Source: a virus. Taken from it: a DNA stretch of 64,000 nt. The DNA is taken from the IMG/VR virus record IMGVR_UViG_3300035158_000384, positions 1 through 64,000 of that record; one strand, 5' to 3'. The translations under genes were made by a program, and so were the position numbers. Shown here piece after piece: positions 3,362 through 19,254 of the stretch. The number at the start of each line of letters is the position of its first letter. Position 1 is the first letter of the stretch. The notes under the pieces are model-generated. The model made no database searches, was not told the origin of the DNA, and worked only from the letters and a program-made list of their open reading frames with translations.

Positions 3362-3458
3362 TAGCCCCGGCAGGAATCGAACCTGCTTCTAGTGTAGCAA
3401 GGGAAATCCCTTGGTGCGCACTTTCAACACTTGCCCATCACCAATGGGCCACAGGGCT
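3362..3458 (-). ncRNA. tRNA-like RNA with expanded anticodon arm
   Basis: acceptor AGCCCTG/CGGGGCT, D-arm GCCC/GGGC, T-arm GCAGG-TTCGATT-CCTGC; stem AGTGT/ACACT encloses 31 nt instead of 7. Confidence 0.75.
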
Positions 3459-3770: not shown

Positions 3771-3810
3771 AAGGCAATGACCTCAAAAATCACCAACAAA
3801 ACAATTAGAG

Positions 3811-3894
3811 TAGGGGCACCGGGATTCGAACCCGGACGACCTTTCGGTCACGGGCTTTTAAGGCCCGAGCGTCTACCAATTCCACCATGCCCCC
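3811..3894 (-). tRNA. tRNA-Leu(TAA)
   Basis: cloverleaf; anticodon arm CGGGC-CTTAAAA-GCCCG; long variable arm. Confidence 0.95.
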
Positions 3895-3900
3895 AAAGAA

Positions 3901-4278
3901 CTATTCTGGAAACTTAACCTCACCTTCGCCTGTTACATAACAATCAAATTCAATTTTGTCAGCGGCAACGGGTGGGGTGAAAACGACCTTTGGAATATCC
4001 ACGCAGATAAACGGAAAGACAAAGCGGCGGAAAAAGGTCAAAACAGAATACTGGAAAAGCCCTTGGTTTTCGTTGGTCAAACCTTCCCAAGCTAGATCAA
4101 AAACCTCCTTCACTACTTTGGGTATAATAGCATCCATATCAAGGAAATCCCTACAAGGGAACTCCTTCCTATAGTCCTTAATTATCTCGAAAACCTTATC
4201 AACATCTTGGAAAAGACGATAAACACAGAAGGGCGGATTTTGAGCTTCGTTCTTGGAACAATCCATGTAGTCCTCCAA
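3901..4278 (-). CDS. hypothetical protein
   Basis: ORF with GGAGG upstream of the internal ATG. Confidence 0.6.
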   Translation of the reverse strand: MEDYMDCSKNEAQNPPFCVYRLFQDVDKVFEIIKDYRKEFPCRDFLDMDAIIPKVVKEVFDLAWEGLTNENQGLFQYSVLTFFRRFVFPFICVDIPKVVFTPPVAADKIEFDCYVTGEGEVKFPE

Positions 4279-4282
4279 AAGT

Positions 4283-4549
4283 TCATTCTTGCATCATTGA
4301 TTTCAAACGCTCAAACTCGGTTTTATCGAGGTGGAACCAAAATTCTTCCTCGATCCCCCCACTCCAAAATAGCACCACAAATTCTCCCGGTCGCGGTCGA
4401 ACATCTATCTCACCAGCATCACGATACCCAAGCACACGAATACCCGGTGCGAGAATGCCTCCCATCGTCACCTCATAAATGGAGCCTATCCCGCACGAGT
4501 ATGGACCGTAACTTTCAAAAGGAAAGCGCGTGCGAGAAAGATGCTCCAT
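4283..4549 (-). CDS. hypothetical protein
   Basis: 88-aa ORF, AGGAG RBS. Confidence 0.6.
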   Translation of the reverse strand: MEHLSRTRFPFESYGPYSCGIGSIYEVTMGGILAPGIRVLGYRDAGEIDVRPRPGEFVVLFWSGGIEEEFWFHLDKTEFERLKSMMQE

Positions 4550-4602
4550 TGCTTTTCTCCTGTTTATAATCCAACAACAAAGCTATTCAGAATCGGAAGA
4601 TA

Positions 4603-4863
4603 TTACACCTTCTTTGCTCTTGATCCGCTTTTCTGCTCTCGAACAACAGCCCGATAACAGTCGTAGCAAATAAAATGGTACAGGGGAGATTCCTTTATAC
4701 CTTGGAGTGAGACTTGATCAACCACTCGCAAGGTTCTCCCACAAACAGATTTTGCTGTTCCGTTATCCGTTTGAAGCGATAAATGTATAGCTCTACCCTT
4801 CGGGGATTGGCCTATGCCGTAAGTTTTCATGATGGCTCCGTTTTCAAAAAGGTCTCTCGGCAC
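4603..4863 (-). CDS. hypothetical protein, possible Zn-binding
   Basis: H...CG...CxxC pattern, GAGG RBS. Confidence 0.55.
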   Translation of the reverse strand: MPRDLFENGAIMKTYGIGQSPKGRAIHLSLQTDNGTAKSVCGRTLRVVDQVSLQGIKESPLYHFICYDCYRAVVREQKSGSRAKKV

Positions 4864-4872
4864 CTCTTTTTT

Positions 4873-5115
4873 TTATTGCCGCGCCTTCCAAGAGACAACC
4901 TTACCCCCGCCCCCTTTGTTGAAGCACCAACGCTCTGCACAACCCTTCTGTGCAAACCGATCCACCATCTCGTACCAATGACCATCCTCGAGCCGCTTTA
5001 GATTGTCGTCGATGTACTCGAGGGCATCCTGTTTGCGGTCAAGGTACACCTCCGCGTCGGATTCTTCGTTTTCCCAACATTGAATCACGATGTAGCGTTG
5101 TGAAAAATCACCCAT
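4873..5115 (-). CDS. hypothetical protein
   Basis: 80-aa ORF overlapping upstream gene stop. Confidence 0.6.
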   Translation of the reverse strand: MGDFSQRYIVIQCWENEESDAEVYLDRKQDALEYIDDNLKRLEDGHWYEMVDRFAQKGCAERWCFNKGGGGKVVSWKARQ

Positions 5116-5335
5116 TCTGCCCCCCTATATCGTCCGGTAGAGTAACACCCAAAGCCTTGGCTAAAGTCACCAGCGCCGCGTAGGGTGCTTGAGGATCAAT
5201 CGCACACATACCGTCTCCAACAACCTGCCTGATAGCTCTCTTGAGGCGTCTGCGCACCTTCGCCCACCCGATCACCGAATACCCGTATGCAGCCGCTTCG
5301 TCCTGCATCATGTCGTTGTAAGAAGGCTTGTCCAC
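5108..5335 (-). CDS. hypothetical protein
   Basis: 75-aa ORF directly below promoter 5376-5404. Confidence 0.6.
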   Translation of the reverse strand: MDKPSYNDMMQDEAAAYGYSVIGWAKVRRRLKRAIRQVVGDGMCAIDPQAPYAALVTLAKALGVTLPDDIGGQNG

Positions 5336-5375
5336 CTCGATCCCCCTTTAACAAAAAATCATACCCTTCGAAAAG

Positions 5376-5404
5376 AGTATACCACACGTTTGACATTGCG
5401 TCAA
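5376..5404 (-). promoter_or_regulatory. sigma70 promoter with overlapping palindromic box
   Basis: TTGACG-17 nt-TATACT with TG extension; palindrome TTGACATTGCGTCAA at 5390-5404. Confidence 0.8.
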
Positions 5405-5457
5405 GCTCTTTTTAGGAAAAATTACTGGGGGTTGCGAAAACTGGCGGGTTTATTTTG

Positions 5458-5532
5458 TCGGGCAGACAGGATTCGAACCTGCACCCTCCCGGACCCAAAC
5501 CGGGTGCTCCACTCAAGTTGAGCTACTGCCCG
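5458..5532 (-). tRNA. tRNA-Pro(TGG)
   Basis: anticodon arm CCCGG-TTTGGGT-CCGGG; canonical T-arm. Confidence 0.95.
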
Positions 5533-5546
5533 TATACATCGTCTTA

Positions 5547-5619
5547 TGGAGCCTGTGGGATTCGAACCCACTACCCCCACCGTGCAAAAGTGGTGCTCTC
5601 CCAAGTGAGCTAAGGCCCC
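5547..5619 (-). tRNA. tRNA-Ala(TGC)
   Basis: GGGGCCT/AGGCTCC acceptor with G3.U70; loop TTTGCAC. Confidence 0.95.
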
Positions 5620-5639
5620 GTTTGTCACTCTCACATTTG

Positions 5640-5724
5640 CGGAAGGTGTAGGATTCGAACCCACGGACCTCTCGGTCTTCGGTTTTCAAAACCGACGCCA
5701 TAAACCGGACTCGGCCAACCTTCC
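5640..5724 (-). tRNA. tRNA-Ser(TGA)
   Basis: TCGGT-TTTGAAA-ACCGA, long variable arm, G73. Confidence 0.95.
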
Positions 5725-5729
5725 TTTTG

Positions 5730-5803
5730 TAGTGCGGACGGGACTTGAACCCGTAACCTCGTGCTTATAAGGCACGCGCTCTCACCAGTTGAGCTACCGC
5801 ACC
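5730..5803 (-). tRNA. tRNA-Ile(TAT)
   Basis: CGTGC-CTTATAA-GCACG; canonical D and T arms. Confidence 0.9.
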
Positions 5804-5805
5804 AG

Positions 5806-6063
5806 TTATCCAGCCCACGTCATTTTTGACCACTTGTTCCACTTCTCGACCGCATCGGCTTTGCTGTCGGCGTATCTCACATGCAACGTGTGCTCTCTAT
5901 ATGATCCTTGTCCGTGTTTGGAGCAACACAGAAACAACCATATTCCACCCTGCCCCCTCCGCGACTCGTCGCAGATCAACATCGGCGGGGCTCCACACAT
6001 GCAGGGTTCGGCACCCAGCATTTTCGCCTCTGTTATGGCCTGTTCGGTTTCTGCGTCAGTCAC
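5806..6063 (-). CDS. Lar (restriction alleviation)-like Zn protein
   Basis: GAGGAGG RBS plus GTG; PCMCG...CC...ADAVEKWN resembles the Lar-family PCPFCG...AIEAWN pattern. Confidence 0.5.
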   Translation of the reverse strand: MTDAETEQAITEAKMLGAEPCMCGAPPMLICDESRRGQGGIWLFLCCSKHGQGSYREHTLHVRYADSKADAVEKWNKWSKMTWAG

Positions 6064-6089
6064 CGGCGGTACCTCCTCGGCGTAGTTTG

Positions 6090-6178
6090 TGGGAGCGGCT
6101 GGATTTGAACCAGCGAAAGTCAATACGACTATCGGGTTTACAGCCCGACTCCTTTGGCCAGACTCGGAACACGCTCCC
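6090..6178 (-). tRNA. tRNA-Tyr(GTA)
   Basis: TCGGG-CTGTAAA-CCCGA, long variable arm. Confidence 0.95.
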
Positions 6179-6201
6179 TCTATCCGTCTCGTTTACTTTT
6201 T

Positions 6202-6284
6202 TGGGGGCCGGAGCAGGACTCGAACCTACGACAAGTCAGACGAAGCGTGTTCGCCAACCGTTCTGCCAACTGAACTATCCGGCC
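6202..6284 (-). ncRNA. tRNA-like RNA with no canonical anticodon loop, encoded CCA
   Basis: acceptor GGCCGGA/TCCGGCC+C+CCA, D-arm GTTC/GAAC, T-loop TTCGAGT; anticodon arm is a ~9-bp stem with loop CACGC. Confidence 0.8.
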
Positions 6285-6595
6285 TTGTAAATGAACACCG
6301 GCGCTGTTAAGGGGTCAAAAGAAGGGTCAGTATCGAACGGGCATCCGTAGTAACGACAGCGAGGCACCCATCCGGGAGCCCCTCTCTTCCTAAAAGCGGG
6401 GTCAGTAATCCAACGCGGACGGTTAATGTAGACGCCTGTGAAACGACAGAAACCCACCGGTACCCCACTCCCCCAAATCGTTCCATCCAACGTGTCTCTC
6501 GGCTCTGCGTTCTGATCAACCTTACGCGAGTCCACAAAAGCGGGACACTCATTGCACGTTTGGGGGGCTTCACCTTTTGGCAACGTCCACAACAT
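6275..6595 (-). CDS. hypothetical Cys-rich protein
   Basis: CxxCP...C...CP pattern like 1681-2130; GAGGTGG RBS. Confidence 0.55.
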   Translation of the reverse strand: MLWTLPKGEAPQTCNECPAFVDSRKVDQNAEPRDTLDGTIWGSGVPVGFCRFTGVYINRPRWITDPAFRKRGAPGWVPRCRYYGCPFDTDPSFDPLTAPVFIYKAG

Positions 6596-6621
6596 TTACC
6601 ACCTCTGACTCCAACGCGCGT

Positions 6622-6699
6622 TGGCACACCCGGAAGGATTCGAACCCTCAATCTGCTGGTCCGTAGCCAGCCGCCTTAATCCAATTTGGCCACGGGTGT
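6622..6699 (-). tRNA. tRNA-Arg(ACG)
   Basis: GCTGG-CTACGGA-CCAGC; encoded CCA. Confidence 0.95.
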
Positions 6700-6706
6700 G
6701 TATAAG

Positions 6707-6779
6707 TACCCCGACGGGGAATTGAACCCTCGATTAGCGGATTGAAAGCCCGCCGTCCTAACCATTGGACCACCGGGGC
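6707..6779 (-). tRNA. tRNA-Glu(TTC)
   Basis: GCGGG-CTTTCAA-TCCGC. Confidence 0.9.
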
Positions 6780-6865
6780 ATTTAGAACGCTCTGCACATG
6801 CTCTTCTCCGTATTACACCGGCCCGACTCGAACAGTCCGCCCGTCAAGGATGAGGAAAGGGGGTG

Positions 6866-7117
6866 TTAATCGGGCACGGCGTCCTCGCCGCACTCCTCGA
6901 AGAGGGCGTCGTACACCCCCTCCGCTGCGGTGTCCAGTAGTTCCCCTTCGCTCAAGGAAGGGTGATCTTTCGTAGGGGAGAGCACCAGAACACCTTTTTT
7001 CTCGATTTCAGCCCAAATGTAGGGCCTCAAGTTCTCTGGCACCATCTTCTGAAAGTTCGCGCGGGTCTTGGTGCCCACAACATCAGCATTGAAGTGAATC
7101 ACATAAATCTCACCCAT
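6866..7117 (-). CDS. hypothetical protein
   Basis: GGAGGAGG RBS before MGEIYV. Confidence 0.6.
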   Translation of the reverse strand: MGEIYVIHFNADVVGTKTRANFQKMVPENLRPYIWAEIEKKGVLVLSPTKDHPSLSEGELLDTAAEGVYDALFEECGEDAVPD

Positions 7118-7174
7118 ATCGTCCTCCTCCTGTCTGATTGCGTAACCCTGTAACCGTTCTTCCAAAACAGCTTA

Positions 7175-7249
7175 CCCAGCATACGGGATTTGAACCCGTG
7201 TCACCGGATCGACAATCCGGTATTCTAAACCAAGCTGAACTAATGCCGG
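7175..7249 (-). tRNA. tRNA-Asp(GTC)
   Basis: CCGGA-TTGTCGA-TCCGG, G73. Confidence 0.9.
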
Positions 7250-7250
7250 T

Positions 7251-7328
7251 TGGTGGAGCGGGAGGGATTTGAACCCACGATGTTCTGCTTGTAAGGCAGA
7301 CGCCCTAACCAGACTAGGCCACCGCTCC
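7251..7328 (-). tRNA. tRNA-Val(TAC)
   Basis: TCTGC-CTTACAA-GCAGA, encoded CCA. Confidence 0.95.
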
Positions 7329-7421
7329 AAAACTGAAGGTGGGGGAGGAGTAAGAGGTCCAGACGAGTCCAAGGGTGTATCCCTCTTCTTGGTGCTATTG
7401 AAAAGTCGCACCGGGTAGTTG

Positions 7422-7496
7422 TTGCGGGGGTCGGATTTGAACCGACGTACTCGTGCTTATGAGGCACGCGAGGCGACCAGACTCCTCAACCCCGCA
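7422..7496 (-). tRNA. tRNA-Met(CAT), initiator-like body
   Basis: TGCGGGG/CCCCGCA acceptor, A11-U24 pair, TTCAAAT T-loop; arm CGTGC-CTCATAA-GCACG. Confidence 0.9.
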
Positions 7497-7502
7497 ATCA
7501 AA

Positions 7503-7584
7503 TGAACCAGCAAGGATCGTAGTGATTGGCTTTTAAGCCCTGATTATGAGTCAGGTGATTGTAATCACTCCGGCATCTGGTTCA
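7503..7584 (-). ncRNA. short Y RNA carrying an isolated anticodon-arm-like hairpin
   Basis: terminal stem TGAACCAG/CTGGTTCA, ATGC//ATCCTTG internal loop shared with the two neighbouring RNAs; downstream of the Ro60 gene. Confidence 0.8.
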
Positions 7585-7590
7585 ATATGA

Positions 7591-7725
7591 AAGGGCAGCA
7601 AGTATTGACAGAGAACGTGTACGGGGCCTAACCACTCGGCCACCCCCTCGTAAGTGAGGGGGGCAGGATTCGAACCTGCGTTCTCCGGCTTTCCAAGCAA
7701 AGTAGCTCTGCCAGCATCTACCCTT
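7591..7725 (-). ncRNA. YrlA-type Y RNA
   Basis: Ro-binding stem plus permuted tRNA domain: T-arm GCAGG-TTCGAAT-CCTGC, closed acceptor CCCCCTC/GAGGGGG, D-arm GCC/GGC. Confidence 0.88.
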
Positions 7726-7734
7726 ATTTGTTTT

Positions 7735-7862
7735 GGGCCGACAAGGATGAGCAGGAGTCATTGGCGCTCTACCTCTGAGCTACAGGAGGTTTCCCTCCTG
7801 ATGGGATTTGAACCCACGTCCTCCTCCTTACTTGGGAATGTAATCCTACCCGCATTCGGCCC
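7735..7862 (-). ncRNA. YrlA-type Y RNA
   Basis: GGGCCGA/TCGGCCC stem; T-arm GTGGG-TTCAAAT-CCCAT; acceptor hairpin CAGGAGG-GAAA-CCTCCTG; D-arm GCTC/GAGC. Confidence 0.9.
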
Positions 7863-7938
7863 TTTTGTCAACTGTTAAAGAGCAGTATTACAACCTTACA
7901 ATTACCGCATCACGCAAAGATGTCACACGATTTCCCGC

Positions 7939-9570
7939 TTATATCTCCACAGCCTCGATCCGACTGAGCCACAACTCTGGACCTTCCTGCGGCTGTGCTT
8001 CCTGCTCGTTTGCCACAGCGCCTCCAAGGACACGCAGAAGGTCATCGCTGAACCCTCCGATGTAATGCACTTCGTTGCCCTTGGCCTGTGTTGTAGTAGT
8101 CGAGCCTGCCAGATTAACGAAATACAATTTCGCATCCGGGCAAAGCCGTCGGTAATCAAGCCACCGCCCCATAATAGGTGTAGTTTCACCTCTTGGATGC
8201 GTAACCCCTGCGTATGAGGCATCCCACATGCCGTACACCTCCATGTCAGACAGCACAATCACCCGATCAGCTTTCTCCCTCTTCTCCACGATGTGGTCAA
8301 GAACCAGATGCGCGTAGGTACAACCGCCGCCATAGGCAGAAAGCCGCTTCTGAAGCGTGAATACCGTATCCCGAGGCTCCAGCTTCTCCGCTCCGTAGGC
8401 AGCATCGAGGTGCAACTGCCCATCAAACGGGAGAACCAACGTGTCCGGGTTCTTCTTGAGAAAGATCGCCCCGAACAGCGCGGCGACATCAACACACTTG
8501 ATCTCCGACGACTGGTTGCGTCGCATCCCGGTAACAGGCGTCCACGTCATTGACCCGGAGACGTCTACCCCCAATATGGTGCGTCCCGAGAACGGCTCCA
8601 TCTCCTCGATCAAACCACCCATCACAGCGTGTAAAGCATCTGACACGGCCCTCGGCAGGTTTTCCCTCGCGAAGAGGTAAGTAGCCAATAAGTGGTGAGG
8701 GAACAACTTCTGCTTGTCGTAATCACTCGGATTCTGGAGGCGCTCCGCCACCGTAGCGCACACCTTGGGCTCCTGCAAAAGACCCTTCCTCGCGAGCACG
8801 TTCAGGTTCATCCGCAACCACGTCCAACTCACAAACTCAAGCATCTGCGCCCAATGGACCGGCTTTTTCAGGTGGTTCTCGATAAGCGCCTTCGGGAGCG
8901 TAGGGAGTTTGTCCGACTCGCCGCGCTTGAACGCCTCGAACTCCTTCACCACCGTCGGAAGTATCTCACGGTTGTAGTCACCCTTGCGGCGGTTCACCAA
9001 GTACCCAAAAAGCGCCTCGTGCTCTGCCGTGGCAGGCTTTGGATGGACCATGCGGATCACGTCCGCCAGCGAAGGGTTCTTGCCCATGCTGTTACGGAAA
9101 ATGGTAGCGGGTTTGCGGTCTGCGAACCATCGCTCCATACACCTCCGAGCCGCATTGCTGAAGCTCTTGCGCCCCAATACACCACTACGAACGACCTGCG
9201 CGAACGTGCGAAGCTGCTTCCCGTTGTCAACCACTCGAGGGAACACCTTCTCAGCGAGTTCCTTGTCGCGGTTGAACAAGTGCGCCAAAAGGACCACAGG
9301 AGCGTCCTTCATCTTAGCCATCTCACGCCCATACACAGCCGCCTTTGCCTCAAAAAGAGCATCGACATTGTCAGCCAAACGCAGGAATGTTGCAAGCTGG
9401 TCCTCGGCGGTGTTGTAGAAGCCGTCTTGGATCGTGAACGTACAGACACCCTGTGCAAGCGCCAGCTTCGGGGTCTGCACAAATGCAATCCCGCCCGCGC
9501 TGTTGCGAGTGTCGGCCTGCGGAGTTGCAGCCCGTAGTGTGTTAAAAATCTTCTTGTTCGCCATGTCCAA
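7939..9570 (-). CDS. rsr: Ro60/Rsr TROVE-domain RNA-binding protein with C-terminal vWA
   Basis: NSAGG N-terminus, DVIRMVHPKP, LRMNLN, MIDAS DVSGSM, GGCT, VLSD; followed by Y RNAs. Confidence 0.92.
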   Translation of the reverse strand: MDMANKKIFNTLRAATPQADTRNSAGGIAFVQTPKLALAQGVCTFTIQDGFYNTAEDQLATFLRLADNVDALFEAKAAVYGREMAKMKDAPVVLLAHLFNRDKELAEKVFPRVVDNGKQLRTFAQVVRSGVLGRKSFSNAARRCMERWFADRKPATIFRNSMGKNPSLADVIRMVHPKPATAEHEALFGYLVNRRKGDYNREILPTVVKEFEAFKRGESDKLPTLPKALIENHLKKPVHWAQMLEFVSWTWLRMNLNVLARKGLLQEPKVCATVAERLQNPSDYDKQKLFPHHLLATYLFARENLPRAVSDALHAVMGGLIEEMEPFSGRTILGVDVSGSMTWTPVTGMRRNQSSEIKCVDVAALFGAIFLKKNPDTLVLPFDGQLHLDAAYGAEKLEPRDTVFTLQKRLSAYGGGCTYAHLVLDHIVEKREKADRVIVLSDMEVYGMWDASYAGVTHPRGETTPIMGRWLDYRRLCPDAKLYFVNLAGSTTTTQAKGNEVHYIGGFSDDLLRVLGGAVANEQEAQPQEGPELWLSRIEAVEI

Positions 9571-9622: not shown

Positions 9623-10264
9623 TCAATAGTCCTCTTGCTCGCAAGTGTCACATACTCCAAACACAACACATGCTTCACAGCACAATTTCCCACACTTACG
9701 GCACCGCGTTACACCGCTCTCCACACCACAATTCGGGCATTCCACAAACCAACCACCCTGTTTGGCAACAACGAGAACAGCGTCTACCGATTGCGCTTTT
9801 GTGACTTCTTTTCGTGCGGCCAGCGCCATTTGGTAGTCCAAAAATGATCGCTCCAACTTAACACCAAACTTCACAGCTATCACCCTCAAACGACCGTCTC
9901 CGTCGTGAACCAAACCACTCTTGAAGTGGTGCCTCGTGTACCGCTTGTTTTGTGCGTTCTCTTGTGGTGTCACAACCCGAAGGTTCTCCAAACGATTGTT
10001 AAGGGTATCGCCGTCTACATGATCCACCACGAAACCCTCTGGAACGTCCATTAAAAGCCGGTGGATGTACGCACTTTTACCGTTTTTGTACCCGCGAACC
10101 CAACCTATACCACGCTTGCGATCAACCCAATTCACAAAAAAGCGCCAACCTGCAAGCACGTCCAGCATATCCACATCCACAATTGCAGGTCTTTTGCTAT
10201 TTTTCAAATGGATATGGGCAACACCATTCACCAACTGTATTAGTGAGGGATTTGTCCGAGCCAT
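9623..10264 (-). CDS. HNH endonuclease
   Basis: HRLLM...VDHVDGDTLNNRLENLRVVTPQEN; Cys-rich C-terminus. Confidence 0.9.
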   Translation of the reverse strand: MARTNPSLIQLVNGVAHIHLKNSKRPAIVDVDMLDVLAGWRFFVNWVDRKRGIGWVRGYKNGKSAYIHRLLMDVPEGFVVDHVDGDTLNNRLENLRVVTPQENAQNKRYTRHHFKSGLVHDGDGRLRVIAVKFGVKLERSFLDYQMALAARKEVTKAQSVDAVLVVAKQGGWFVECPNCGVESGVTRCRKCGKLCCEACVVFGVCDTCEQEDY

Positions 10265-11651: not shown

Positions 11652-11791
11652 TGACAAGGGTGGGAGTCGAACCCACTTGAGACTTACACTCACCTGTTTC
11701 TCTGCCGCGGCTCCACAGGCTATTGATGCTCGGAACGGTAGTTTCGATTCGGGTTATACTGACCGCTCCGCATTCCATCTGCCACCTTGTC
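11652..11791 (-). ncRNA. 140-nt tRNA-like RNA with extended anticodon and variable arms
   Basis: acceptor GACAAGG/CCTTGTC, T-arm GTGGG-TTCGACT-CCCAC, D-arm GCA/TGC, stem GGAGCGGT/ACCGTTCC. Confidence 0.75.
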
Positions 11792-18570: not shown

Positions 18571-19254
18571 TCATTCGCTACCTAAGCCGTATTCAGCATC
18601 CCTATCCGCGTCGACTTCTTCGTTCGGCGGCCATGTGTACCCGAAGTCCTTGCGTTTGATTTTGACCATACGCCCGTCCGGGTGGTGCCACACTACACCC
18701 TCGATTTTGGTCCTCGAGAAATACTGAAGCAGGCCGTAGAAGTCTCTCGGGACATCCCGCAATTCAACAGCCCCGTGCCGATAAAACTCATGCTCCTCGA
18801 GCTTATACGGGTTCCCTTGCACCTTTGGACCGACCAACTCGAACGTCGCCGGACCTCGAAGATTGTGCAACGAAGGCTCGCGGTTCCAAGCCTCCTCAAA
18901 CATACCGTAGTCCGACGCTTTCGGGTCCACCGGAACCCATCCGGGCCAATGCCCCGTGTTTACGTCAGGCTCCGTTTCACACTCACGCCAACTCTCGGGG
19001 GCTGGTTTGAAATCTGATAGACGATAGGGCTTGTCTGGATGTTTTGCGTGCGCCCTGCGTGCGGATTTTGTAACCTTTCGGTCATACCGCCGCCACAGCC
19101 TCCCTTCGAACACCAAGCAGGCCATACCATCCATTTTAACGGTGGCTTTGCCTTCCCCAGCCACAACCCACTCGCAACCCGCCACCAATTCGTCTTTCAC
19201 GAGCCGCGTACCGCCTGTGTAGTCCCTCTGAAACAAACTCGGAACCTTTTTCAC
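18571..19254 (-). CDS. ATP-dependent RNA ligase, C12orf29/RLIG1 (DUF5565)-like
   Basis: motif I TVKMDG, DFKPAPESW, GHWPGWVPV, motif III ELVG..VQGNPY, motif IV IEGVVWH, motif V VKIK. Confidence 0.85.
   Translation of the reverse strand: MKKVPSLFQRDYTGGTRLVKDELVAGCEWVVAGEGKATVKMDGMACLVFEGRLWRRYDRKVTKSARRAHAKHPDKPYRLSDFKPAPESWRECETEPDVNTGHWPGWVPVDPKASDYGMFEEAWNREPSLHNLRGPATFELVGPKVQGNPYKLEEHEFYRHGAVELRDVPRDFYGLLQYFSRTKIEGVVWHHPDGRMVKIKRKDFGYTWPPNEEVDADRDAEYGLGSE

What the first reader, a model, noticed from the sequence alone, without database searches (positions are those of the whole stretch)
7503..9570. Phage-encoded Ro60 with three different Y RNAs inside the tRNA operon
Seen: rsr is followed by three RNAs sharing terminal stem / AUGC-AU(C/A)CUUG internal loop / 8-bp stem / YUAC with fully covarying stems, but carrying different payloads. 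Two have the permuted T-acceptor-D tRNA domain and one does not. Known: bacterial Rsr-YrlA RNPs associate with RNA decay and repair (PNPase, RtcB operons). Inference: one Ro ring with interchangeable RNA adaptors, co-transcribed with phage tRNAs, acting in tRNA quality control or counter-defence.
Basis: partly seen in the sequence, partly recalled or inferred. Interest (0 to 1): 0.75.

Follow-up and report, generated by a model that had tools for sequence, protein, structure and literature searches.

The report
Phage Ro60 with three Y RNAs
An uncultured large phage encodes the ring-shaped RNA-binding protein Ro60, followed by three small partner RNAs at the head of its tRNA gene array; this is a clear but ordinary example of an arrangement already known in bacteria and phages.

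Summary
The ORF at 7939-9570 (-) is a divergent but full-length Ro60/Rsr. Profile matches to D. radiodurans Rsr, phage phiLo Ro60 and human/Xenopus Ro60 range from E 4e-34 to 2e-22, and the 13 best PDB matches of the AF2 model are all Ro60.

Three RNAs follow it on the same strand, 7-10 nt apart and 7 nt before tRNA-Met. Y1 and Y2 match Rfam YrlA over the whole model (52.7 and 46.7 bits, E 4e-11 and 2e-9). Both fall below the gathering score of 69, as did every phage YrlA I scored. Y3 has the same Ro60-binding handle but no tRNA-like domain.

The handle pattern occurs 3 times in the window, against 0.06 expected. It also occurs 45 times beside Ro60 genes, on the Ro60 strand, in 21 of 73 other viral loci. 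It comes in short and long forms, up to five per locus, usually inside co-oriented tRNA arrays.

Phage Ro60 with YrlA RNAs, and several Y RNAs per Ro60 with one lacking the tRNA domain, are published (Chen 2014; phiLo 2025). This scan has met similar loci on other DNA. The locus is a new member of a known kind. Its function (RNA decay or quality control, or counter-defence) is still inferred. The CAU "anticodon" reading of Y3 is weak.

The parts
7939..9570 (-). rsr / Ro60 homologue (TROVE-type HEAT-repeat ring plus vWA domain with DxSxS MIDAS motif). The ORF starts at TTG 9570; the likely start is ATG 9564, giving 541 aa.
   Evidence: Profile of A1 against PDB: D. radiodurans Rsr 4e-34, phiLo Ro60 2e-30, human and Xenopus Ro60 about 1e-22, all full length. 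phrog_850 5.7e-33. About 40% identity to TROVE-domain proteins, E 1e-109. AF2 model pLDDT 78.5; the 13 best PDB folds are all Ro60, TM 0.6-0.7. D334, S336 and S338 are invariant.
7863..7938 (-). 76-nt spacer between the rsr stop codon and Y1.
   Evidence: Sequence. The only promoter-like site (TTGACA-17-TAGGAT, 7871-7843) would start transcription inside Y1, so it is probably spurious.
7735..7862 (-). Y1: YrlA-type Y RNA. It has the handle GGGCCGA/AUGC/GGGUAGGA/UUAC, a mini-hairpin (loop CAAGUAA), a T arm, a 7-bp acceptor-like stem capped by GAAA, and a class-I-type D arm.
   Evidence: Rfam RF02553: 52.7 bits, E 3.9e-11, model positions 1-114, below the gathering score of 69. Handle scan 7/7 and 8/8 pairs.
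7592..7724 (-). Y2: YrlA-type Y RNA. It has the handle AGGGUAG/AUGC/UGGCAGAG/CUAC, a mini-hairpin, a T arm, a 7-bp acceptor-like stem, and a class-II-type D arm (GCCGAGUGGUUAGGC).
   Evidence: Rfam RF02553: 46.7 bits, E 2.1e-9, model positions 1-114. Handle scan 7/7 and 8/8 pairs.
7504..7583 (-). Y3: short Y RNA with the same handle (GAACCAG/AUGC/CGGAGUGA/UUAC ... UCACUACG/AUCCUUG/CUGGUUC) and no T or D arm. Its interior holds two small hairpins, CCUGA-CUCAUAA-UCAGG and GGCU-UAAA-AGCC.
   Evidence: Handle scan 7/7 and 7/8 pairs. MFE fold -24.5 kcal/mol, z -2.6. No Rfam match. 22 short handle-only RNAs lie beside Ro60 in other viral loci and 22 in bacterial loci.
3810..7496 (-). Array of 12 co-oriented tRNA genes immediately downstream: Met, Val, Asp, Glu, Arg, Arg, Tyr, Ile(UAU), Ser, Ala, Pro, Leu(UAA). 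These are the only tRNAs in the 95.7-kb contig.
   Evidence: ARAGORN and Rfam. Y3 ends 7 nt before tRNA-Met.

Best explanation
This is a phage copy of the bacterial Ro60 (Rsr) / Y RNA ribonucleoprotein system.

Shown by sequence, fold and family models: the phage encodes a ring-shaped Ro60, and directly downstream three Y RNAs that share one YrlA-type Ro60-binding handle. The handle is a terminal stem, an AUGC / AUNCUUG internal loop, an 8-bp stem and YUAC. The interiors differ: two different permuted tRNA-like domains (T arm, closed 7-bp acceptor-like stem, D arm) and one short interior of two hairpins.

Inferred:
1. The three RNAs are cut out of a long rsr-Y-tRNA transcript by the host's tRNA-processing enzymes.
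2. Each RNA binds the outer surface of the Ro60 ring through the handle.
3. The differing interiors tether Ro60 to different host partners. For Y1 and Y2 these would be the 3'-to-5' exoribonuclease PNPase, as in the Deinococcus, Salmonella and phiLo complexes, or tRNA-binding enzymes.
4. The phage thereby redirects decay or quality control of structured RNAs, most plausibly tRNA precursors and damaged tRNAs, during infection.
For: Ro60 identity. MIDAS residues.

YrlA matches over the whole model at E 4e-11 and 2e-9, within 80-350 nt of rsr. This meets the criteria of Chen 2014 (E<5e-5, within 4 kb; PMC4201824).

Shared handle with compensatory changes, 3 hits against 0.06 expected.

The same handle lies beside Ro60, on its strand, in 45 of 46 viral hits and 90 of 90 bacterial hits, against 0.2 hits in shuffles. 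It occurs in both short and long forms.

Spacers of 7-10 nt and no terminator-like site on that strand.

A related strain in microbial-mat contigs differs at 5 of 349 positions across the RNA stretch, against 15 of 330 in the 3' end of rsr. Every change inside a Y RNA falls in a loop or linker.

[quoted passage not shown] Phage phiLo Ro60 binds two phage Y-like RNAs and host PNPase in vitro (PMC12135203).
Against: There is no expression, processing or binding evidence for this phage.

Both YrlA matches are below Rfam's gathering score.

The protein misses Pfam TROVE at E<=0.001, and its vWA_Ro60 match of 25.5 bits is below the cut-off of 27.7.

Y2 and Y3 carry AGAUG where the published motif GNCGAAN0-1G has CGAA.

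In the MFE folds of Y1 and Y2 the 3' strand of stem 2 pairs elsewhere, so the handle may compete with other conformations.

No PNPase, RtcB or CCA-adding enzyme is encoded in the 95.7-kb contig. Any partner must therefore come from the host, which is unknown.

Of the 73 viral Ro60 loci, 52 have no strict handle; 8 of those were checked with Rfam and have no YrlA match nearby.
Confidence: 0.8

Rival explanations
1. Counter-defence decoys. The tRNA-like domains of Y1 and Y2, and the anticodon-loop-like hairpins of Y3 (CUCAUAA, and CUUAAAAGCC shared with the phage tRNA-Leu(UAA)), soak up or misdirect host tRNA-targeting nucleases. Ro60 stabilises them, or delivers the cut products to decay or repair enzymes such as the RLIG1-like RNA ligase at 18571-19254.
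For: The 7-nt loop of Y3 equals that of the adjacent tRNA-Met, and a 10-mer equals the anticodon loop of tRNA-Leu(UAA). Hairpins with a 7-nt loop carrying U at position 2 and a purine at position 6 occur in the first 34 nt of 22 of 47 interiors, against 5.9 +/- 2.3 in shuffles. The locus sits in a tRNA array, and an RNA ligase gene is 9 kb away.
Against: There is only one instance of the Y3 interior, and no orthologue was found. In a closely related strain the middle base of the 'anticodon' differs (CAU becomes CUU, a single contig at depth 3). The recurrent loops cluster on YUUGNAA / NGUA rather than tracking each phage's own tRNAs. The second hairpin cannot form a closed 7-nt loop. No anticodon nuclease or host is known.
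Confidence: 0.12
2. Y3 is not a working Y RNA. It would be a decayed duplicate of a YrlA gene that lost its tRNA-like domain, or merely a structured spacer or processing signal of the tRNA operon.
For: No Rfam match. One G.A mismatch in stem 2. A competing local hairpin GUGAU-UACA-AUCAC can form with the 5' strand of stem 2 (sequence). The fold z-score is only -2.6.
Against: Both stems are kept by compensatory changes relative to Y1 and Y2, and the AUGC, UUAC and AUCCUUG motifs are intact. Short handle-only RNAs form a recurrent class beside Ro60: 22 in viral loci and 22 in bacterial loci. This matches the published YrlB/Yrn2 class. The two differences seen in a related strain are in the linker and a loop, not in the stems.
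Confidence: 0.06

Closest known systems
Bacterial and mycobacteriophage Rsr-YrlA RNPs (Chen et al. 2014, PMC4201824; Rfam RF02553)
   Same: Ro60 orthologue with YrlA RNAs encoded within a few hundred nt. Handle with AUGC / ACUUG loops and CUAC. Permuted T arm, acceptor-like stem and D arm. A 7-bp acceptor-like stem as in M. smegmatis YrlA. More than one Y RNA per Ro60, processed from one precursor.
   Different: The scores (52.7 and 46.7 bits) are below Rfam's gathering score. A 15-nt mini-hairpin is inserted after YUAC relative to the model. Y2 and Y3 have AGAUG instead of CGAAUG. The protein is only about 24% identical to actinophage Ro-like proteins.
YrlB / Yrn2-type simple Y RNAs (S. Typhimurium, M. 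smegmatis, D. radiodurans; PMC4201824)
   Same: A second Ro60-bound RNA without the full tRNA-like domain, built on a long stem formed by the 5' and 3' ends.
   Different: The published ones end in a small pyrimidine-rich loop. Y3 carries the exact YrlA handle and a 39-nt interior with two hairpins. No family model exists to test against.
Thermus phage phiLo Ro60 with Yrl1/Yrl2 (PMC12135203; PDB 9KOP, 9L5Y)
   Same: A phage-encoded Ro60 ring with two or more phage-encoded Y-like RNAs next to the gene. It is the best single-sequence PDB match (E 4e-14). Host PNPase is recruited in vitro.
   Different: The phiLo RNAs lie upstream of the gene and are described as stem-bulge-stem with a CGAA motif, not as tRNA-like. 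Here the RNAs lie downstream and lead into a tRNA array.
Myxococcus phage Mx1 TROVE protein (OR576727.2)
   Same: The closest cultured-phage Ro60 (35.8% identity, full length). It also lies among phage tRNA genes.
   Different: No YrlA match at E<0.1 and no strict handle within 5 kb of the Mx1 gene.

Membership tests
Ro60 / Rsr (TROVE) proteins | Full-length sequence homology to characterised Ro60/Rsr | tested here: met
   Profile of A1 against PDB: 2NVO Rsr 4e-34, 9KOP/9L5Y 2e-30, human and Xenopus Ro60 about 1e-22, covering residues 18-503. Single sequence 4e-14.
Ro60 / Rsr (TROVE) proteins | HEAT-repeat ring plus vWA fold | tested here: met
   AF2 model pLDDT 78.5, pTM 0.78: helical repeats to about residue 320, then an alpha/beta domain. 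The 13 best Foldseek PDB hits are all Ro60, TM 0.6-0.7.
Ro60 / Rsr (TROVE) proteins | Pfam TROVE (PF05731) / vWA_Ro60 (PF25045) above the curated cut-off | tested here: not met
   Only vWA_Ro60 matches, at 25.5 bits against a cut-off of 27.7. There is no TROVE hit at E<=0.001. Homologues at about 40% identity do carry PF05731, so this reflects divergence rather than absence of the domain.
Ro60 / Rsr (TROVE) proteins | NCBIfam Rsr equivalog NF041674 (cut-off 900 bits) | tested here: not met
   53.7 bits, E 1.2e-14. It is a family member but not an equivalog of the curated Rsr.
Ro60 / Rsr (TROVE) proteins | MIDAS motif DxSxS in the vWA domain | tested here: met
   DVSGSM is present. D334, S336 and S338 are invariant in A1.
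Ro60 / Rsr (TROVE) proteins | Binds Y RNA on the outer ring surface | not testable with these tools
   No protein-RNA docking or experiment is available.
YrlA (Rfam RF02553) | Score at or above the gathering threshold (69 bits) | tested here: not met
   Y1 52.7 bits and Y2 46.7 bits. All 12 YrlA matches beside Ro60 in 8 other viral loci also score 38-61 bits, so the threshold misses this phage group as a whole.
YrlA (Rfam RF02553) | Criteria of Chen 2014: E<5e-5 to the model and within 4 kb of the Ro60 gene | tested here: met
   E 3.9e-11 and 2.1e-9, lying 77 and 215 nt downstream of rsr.
YrlA (Rfam RF02553) | Permuted tRNA-like domain: T arm, closed acceptor-like stem, D arm | tested here: met
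   Met for Y1 and Y2 (alignment to the model structure). Not met for Y3, which is therefore not filed as YrlA.
YrlA (Rfam RF02553) | Ro60-binding motif GNCGAAN0-1G in the 5' strand | tested here: inconclusive
   Y1 has GCCGAAUG, which fits. Y2 has GUAGAUG and Y3 CCAGAUG, which deviate at CGAA. 7 of 47 handles in other loci show the same G-C variant at that pair.
YrlB / Yrn2-type simple Y RNA | Long stem from the 5' and 3' ends containing the Ro60 site, no full tRNA-like domain, encoded beside rsr | tested here: met
   Y3: handle 7/7 and 7/8 pairs, no T or D arm, 8 nt after Y2. The class has no model, so this is architectural only.
YrlB / Yrn2-type simple Y RNA | Ro60-dependent accumulation / co-immunoprecipitation | not testable with these tools
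   No RNA data.

The most novel reading that the evidence does not exclude
The small hairpins that follow YUAC in these phage Y RNAs are anticodon-arm mimics with a fixed U-turn frame (C-U-NNN-A-A/C) and an exchangeable triplet. They are largest in Y3: a 5-bp stem with loop CUCAUAA, followed by a tRNA-Leu(UAA)-like loop. A phage Y RNA array would then be a set of Ro60-borne baits for anticodon-reading proteins such as anticodon nucleases, modification enzymes or synthetases. Read together, Y1/Y2 (tRNA body without anticodon arm) and Y3 (anticodon arms without body) would present a tRNA in two halves.
Probability: 0.1. Interest if true: 0.75.

Novelty: new member of a known kind. Interest (0 to 1): 0.38.

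Why it matters
On its own this locus adds one more phage to a list that already holds mycobacteriophages, CcrColossus, phage G and phiLo.

The wider comparison has some value:
- Rfam's YrlA threshold missed every phage YrlA I scored.
- Phage and bacterial Ro60 genes commonly carry two to five handle-sharing RNAs with very different interiors.
- In phages the Ro60 gene sits almost always inside a co-oriented tRNA array (302 tRNAs on its strand, 0 on the other).

That physical link to tRNA operons supports a tRNA-centred role for phage Ro60. It also gives a compact three-RNA, one-protein system with which the 'adaptor' model of Y RNAs could be tested biochemically.

Tried and rejected
Searches for close relatives
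- Megablast of the locus against GenBank phages: no match.
- Single-protein search of IMG/VR: no close relative.
- Two exact-pattern scans of JGI metagenome contigs with 21-23-mers of Y3 and Y1: nothing. No orthologous Y RNAs were therefore available for covariation.
- A 2.2-kb MAG contig (L079, 97% nt identity) ends inside rsr and does not reach the RNAs.

Tools and data that were unavailable
- No RNA holder was listed for the stretch.

Alignment and model building
- MAFFT alignments of the Y RNAs misplace the 3' strands. I therefore built no covariance model and ran no count of structure pairs. I used an explicit handle scan with shuffle controls instead. That scan selects for pairing, so family-wide pair tables are not independent evidence of covariation.

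Promoters
- The only strong site, TTGACA-17-TAGGAT at 7871-7843, would start transcription inside Y1 and is rejected.

Neighbouring genes
- The upstream AAA ATPase as a conserved Ro60 partner is rejected. It is absent beside Ro60 in the other loci and largely absent in the near relative L079.
- RtcB, the CCA-adding enzyme and RNase PH/PNPase are not found in the contig. The contig is only about 47% of the genome, so absence is not established.

Other readings
- Y3 as a specific tRNA-Met (CAU) mimic is weakened. A near-identical strain reads CUU at that triplet (low depth), and similar 7-nt loops recur after YUAC in other Y RNAs.
- Mx1: a GAAUGC-N8-GUACA half-site lies upstream of its tRNA-Gly, but I saw no matching 3' half on reading, so it is not counted.
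Full report
**Source**

The window is the first 64 kb of a 95,753-bp IMG/VR viral contig. CheckV estimates it at about 47% complete, and it is 52.8% G+C. Its DNA is found in microbial-mat metagenome runs. The gene content is that of a large tailed phage. It includes a DnaB-like helicase, RecD2-like and DEAD-box helicases, an HNH endonuclease, GroES and an RLIG1-like RNA ligase. The closest cultured relative for the gene in question is Myxococcus phage Mx1.

**The protein**

The ORF at 7939..9570 (-) encodes 543 aa from a TTG start. The gene caller's product is 541 aa, from the ATG at 9564. Taken as a single sequence it is a weak match to curated models:
- Pfam vWA_Ro60, 25.5 bits, just under the cut-off, with no TROVE hit.
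- NCBIfam Rsr, 53.7 bits against an equivalog cut-off of 900.

Other evidence settles the identification:
- It is about 40% identical over its full length to thousands of TROVE-domain proteins of Acidobacteriota, Verrucomicrobiota, Pseudomonadota and others, with E about 1e-109.
- It matches phrog_850 at 5.7e-33.
- A profile of it with 22 homologues hits D. radiodurans Rsr (4e-34), phage phiLo Ro60 (2e-30) and human and Xenopus Ro60 (about 1e-22) end to end.
- An AlphaFold2 model (pLDDT 78.5) has as its 13 best PDB neighbours only Ro60 structures, at TM 0.6-0.7.
- The MIDAS motif DVSGSM is intact and invariant in the family alignment.

It is a genuine, divergent Ro60.

**The RNAs**

Three elements follow rsr on the same strand.

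Y1 (7735-7862) and Y2 (7592-7724) align to Rfam YrlA across all 114 model positions, at 52.7 and 46.7 bits (E 3.9e-11 and 2.1e-9). Both have these features:
- The terminal stem, the AUGC / AU(C/A)CUUG internal loop, an 8-bp stem and YUAC.
- A T arm with loop UUCAAAU in Y1 and UUCGAAU in Y2.
- A 7-bp acceptor-like stem closed by a loop.
- A D arm, in the permuted order typical of YrlA.

The two tRNA-like domains are not copies of each other. Y1 has a class-I-type D arm (UAGCUCAGAGGUAGAGC) and Y2 a class-II-type one (UGGCCGAGUGGUUAGGCC). Both carry a 15-nt insertion relative to the Rfam model directly after YUAC. This insertion forms a small hairpin and partly explains the sub-threshold scores.

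The scores are not a peculiarity of this phage. In eight other viral Ro60 loci, all twelve YrlA matches scored 38-61 bits, below the gathering score of 69.

Y3 (7504-7583) has no Rfam match but carries the same handle: GAACCAG / AUGC / CGGAGUGA / UUAC ... UCACUACG / AUCCUUG / CUGGUUC. It has no T or D arm. Its 39-nt interior folds into CCUGA-CUCAUAA-UCAGG and GGCU-UAAA-AGCC.

**Is the handle more than chance?**

- ATGC-N8-YTAC occurs exactly three times in the window, all at these sites.
- I wrote a scan for the full handle. It requires at least 6 of 7 pairs in stem 1, ATGC, at least 7 of 8 pairs in stem 2, and 2-4 nt followed by CTTG. It finds three hits in the window, all on the minus strand at 7504-7862. 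The mean in 100 dinucleotide-preserving shuffles is 0.06.
- It finds nothing else in the whole contig.
- Among the three RNAs, stem 1 is paired in 21 of 21 cells and stem 2 in 23 of 24. Changes on both sides of the pair occur at 6 of 7 and 6 of 8 positions.

**Comparison with other Ro60 loci**

An alignment-based search fetched 73 IMG/VR loci and 79 bacterial or MAG loci encoding relatives of this Ro60.

| Set | Loci with handle | Hits on the Ro60 strand | Loci with 2 or more hits | Short (90 nt or less) | Long |
|---|---|---|---|---|---|
| Viral (73 loci) | 21 | 45 of 46 | 11 (up to 5 per locus) | 22 | 24 |
| Bacterial / MAG (79 loci) | 55 | 90 of 90 | 29 | 22 | 68 |

Shuffles of the first set of loci scanned (the viral loci, L001-L005 and the window) gave 0.2 hits.

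Three handle-sharing RNAs beside one Ro60, with a mix of tRNA-like and short forms, is therefore a common arrangement. Interiors are diverse:
- Permuted tRNA-like domains.
- Non-tRNA hairpin sets (L020, L037).
- One unpermuted cloverleaf with a GAAA-capped anticodon arm, joined through its acceptor stem (L064:5585-5710, which Rfam calls a tRNA).

The tRNA-array context is also general. Of the 73 viral loci, 47 have tRNA genes within 3.5 kb of Ro60. That is 302 tRNAs on the Ro60 strand and none on the other. In some loci a YrlA lies directly between two tRNAs (L017). Many acidobacterial MAG contigs show the same pattern, with up to 22 tRNAs.

Not every phage Ro60 has a detectable Y RNA. 52 of the 73 viral loci lack the strict handle, and eight of these checked with Rfam have no YrlA at E<0.01. 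Mx1 has none either.

**Microdiversity**

Contigs of a related strain from the same microbial-mat study cover parts of the locus. Across tRNA-Met, Y3, Y2 and the start of Y1 (7433-7781) there are 5 differences in 349 nt. The 3' end of rsr has 15 in 330 nt, and the Met-Val spacer region 9 plus a gap in 126 nt.

The differences inside Y RNAs are:
- Y3 C27U, in the linker.
- Y3 A37U, the middle of the CUCAUAA loop, which becomes CUCUUAA.
- Y2 G to A in the T loop (UUCGAAU to UUCAAAU).
- In a second contig, Y1 loop CAAGUAA to CUCGUAA.

None touches a stem. Depths are about 3, so each call is weak. Together they fit RNAs under structural constraint.

**The Y3 "anticodon arm"**

I confirm three points:
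- The first hairpin has a 5-bp stem and a 7-nt loop identical to that of the adjacent tRNA-Met.
- CUUAAAAGCC is shared with the anticodon arm of tRNA-Leu(UAA).
- The second hairpin cannot close a 7-nt loop.

Small hairpins with a 7-nt loop carrying U at position 2 and a purine at position 6 occur within the first 34 nt of 22 of 47 interiors, against 5.9 +/- 2.3 in shuffles. About 13 of these have loops of the type CUUGNAA, CUNGUAC or UUUGAAA, directly after YUACAU, in both long and short RNAs. The Y3 hairpin sits at that same place. This corresponds to the position of the 'V' arm in the YrlA figure of Chen 2014.

With the CAU-to-CUU variant as well, Y3's hairpin is better read as an enlarged version of a family-wide element than as a dedicated tRNA-Met mimic. 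Whether that element imitates anticodon loops in general remains open. I give that reading about 10%.

**Mechanism**

Shown: a Ro60 gene, two YrlA-type RNAs and one short handle-bearing RNA, tightly packed at the 5' end of the phage's only tRNA array.

Inferred from published work:
- Y RNAs bind Ro60 through the handle, gate its cavity, and tether it to PNPase (the RYPER complex) in Deinococcus and Salmonella.
- All three bacteria studied have a tRNA-like and a simple Y RNA, proposed to widen the range of partners.
- M. smegmatis YrlA, with a 7-bp acceptor stem like Y1 and Y2, is cut by RNase P and receives CCA (PMC4201824).
- phiLo Ro60 binds two phage Y-like RNAs and host PNPase in vitro (PMC12135203).

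The contig encodes no PNPase, RtcB or CCA-adding enzyme, so partners would come from the host. An RLIG1-like RNA ligase lies 9 kb upstream. No terminator-like site on the minus strand separates rsr from the tRNAs, and the spacers are 7-10 nt. Co-transcription followed by processing with tRNA enzymes is therefore the simplest reading. There are no RNA data to show it.

**Novelty and verdict**

Phage Ro60 with YrlA RNAs has been published since 2014 for 22 phages, several Y RNAs per Ro60 is the published norm, and a phage Ro60-Y RNP has been solved structurally. This scan has also reported phage Ro60-like genes with several handle-sharing RNAs inside tRNA operons on other DNA (e1-272486, e1-5753165).

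The finding is real and cleanly delimited, but it is a new member of a known kind. Three smaller points are useful for specialists: the systematic miss by Rfam's threshold, the strict co-orientation of phage Ro60 with tRNA arrays, and the diversity of interiors. I found no held paper that links Ro60 or Y RNAs to tRNA arrays, which is not proof that none exists.

Noticed in passing
window 18571-19254 (-): A 227-aa RNA ligase of the RLIG1 (human C12orf29) type: Pfam RLIG1 2e-23, phrog_14301 'RNA ligase' 2.7e-57. It is a possible RNA-repair partner for a tRNA-centred system. No RtcB or polynucleotide kinase was found in the contig.
   Followed up: partly
window 11652-11791 (-): A roughly 140-nt tRNA-like RNA upstream of the AAA ATPase gene, with acceptor GACAAGG/CCUUGUC and T arm GUGGG-UUCGACU-CCCAC. 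Its anticodon arm is replaced by a long arm that begins GAAUGC followed by an 8-bp helix (GGAGCGGU/ACCGUUCC). It has no YUAC or CUUG motifs, no Rfam hit at E<0.5, and is not a hit of the handle scan. A further T-arm-like motif lies at about 11936.
   Followed up: partly
window 3362-3458 (-): A 97-nt tRNA-like gene found by Rfam (tRNA, 45.1 bits) but missed by ARAGORN. The anticodon-arm region is greatly extended.
   Followed up: no
window 9623-10264 (-) and L079: An HNH endonuclease gene sits between the AAA ATPase and rsr. In a 97%-identical relative (MAG contig L079) the region upstream of rsr is rearranged: only the C-terminal part of the HNH gene is recognisable and the AAA ATPase is almost absent. 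This part of the operon is therefore mosaic.
   Followed up: partly
L064:5585-5710 (+): A Ro60-type handle encloses an unpermuted tRNA-like cloverleaf (Rfam tRNA, 46.5 bits at 5610-5678). Its anticodon arm is capped by GAAA, and it is joined to the handle through the acceptor stem. This topology differs from YrlA.
   Followed up: partly
L009, L022, L024, L035, L039: Several viral loci share the order tRNA-Gly(GCC) (tRNA-Thr(UGU) in L009) - Ro60 - tRNA-Thr(CGU/UGU), yet have no handle hit and no YrlA at E<0.01 within 3.5 kb. Their Y RNAs, if any, are of another type or lie elsewhere.
   Followed up: partly
L093, L096, L108, L136, L151 and other MAG contigs: Ro60 genes assigned to Pyrinomonadaceae and Bryobacteraceae MAGs are flanked by 18-22 co-oriented tRNA genes within 3.5 kb. 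These are either tRNA-array islands or prophages, or phage contigs placed in the wrong bin.
   Followed up: no
window 5729-5803 and 6202-6699 (-): The array includes tRNA-Ile(UAU) and two different tRNA-Arg(ACG) genes. Gaps of about 300 nt (5804-6088, 6285-6621, 6780-7174) hold weak T-loop-like motifs at 6338 and 6833, with no family match.
   Followed up: no
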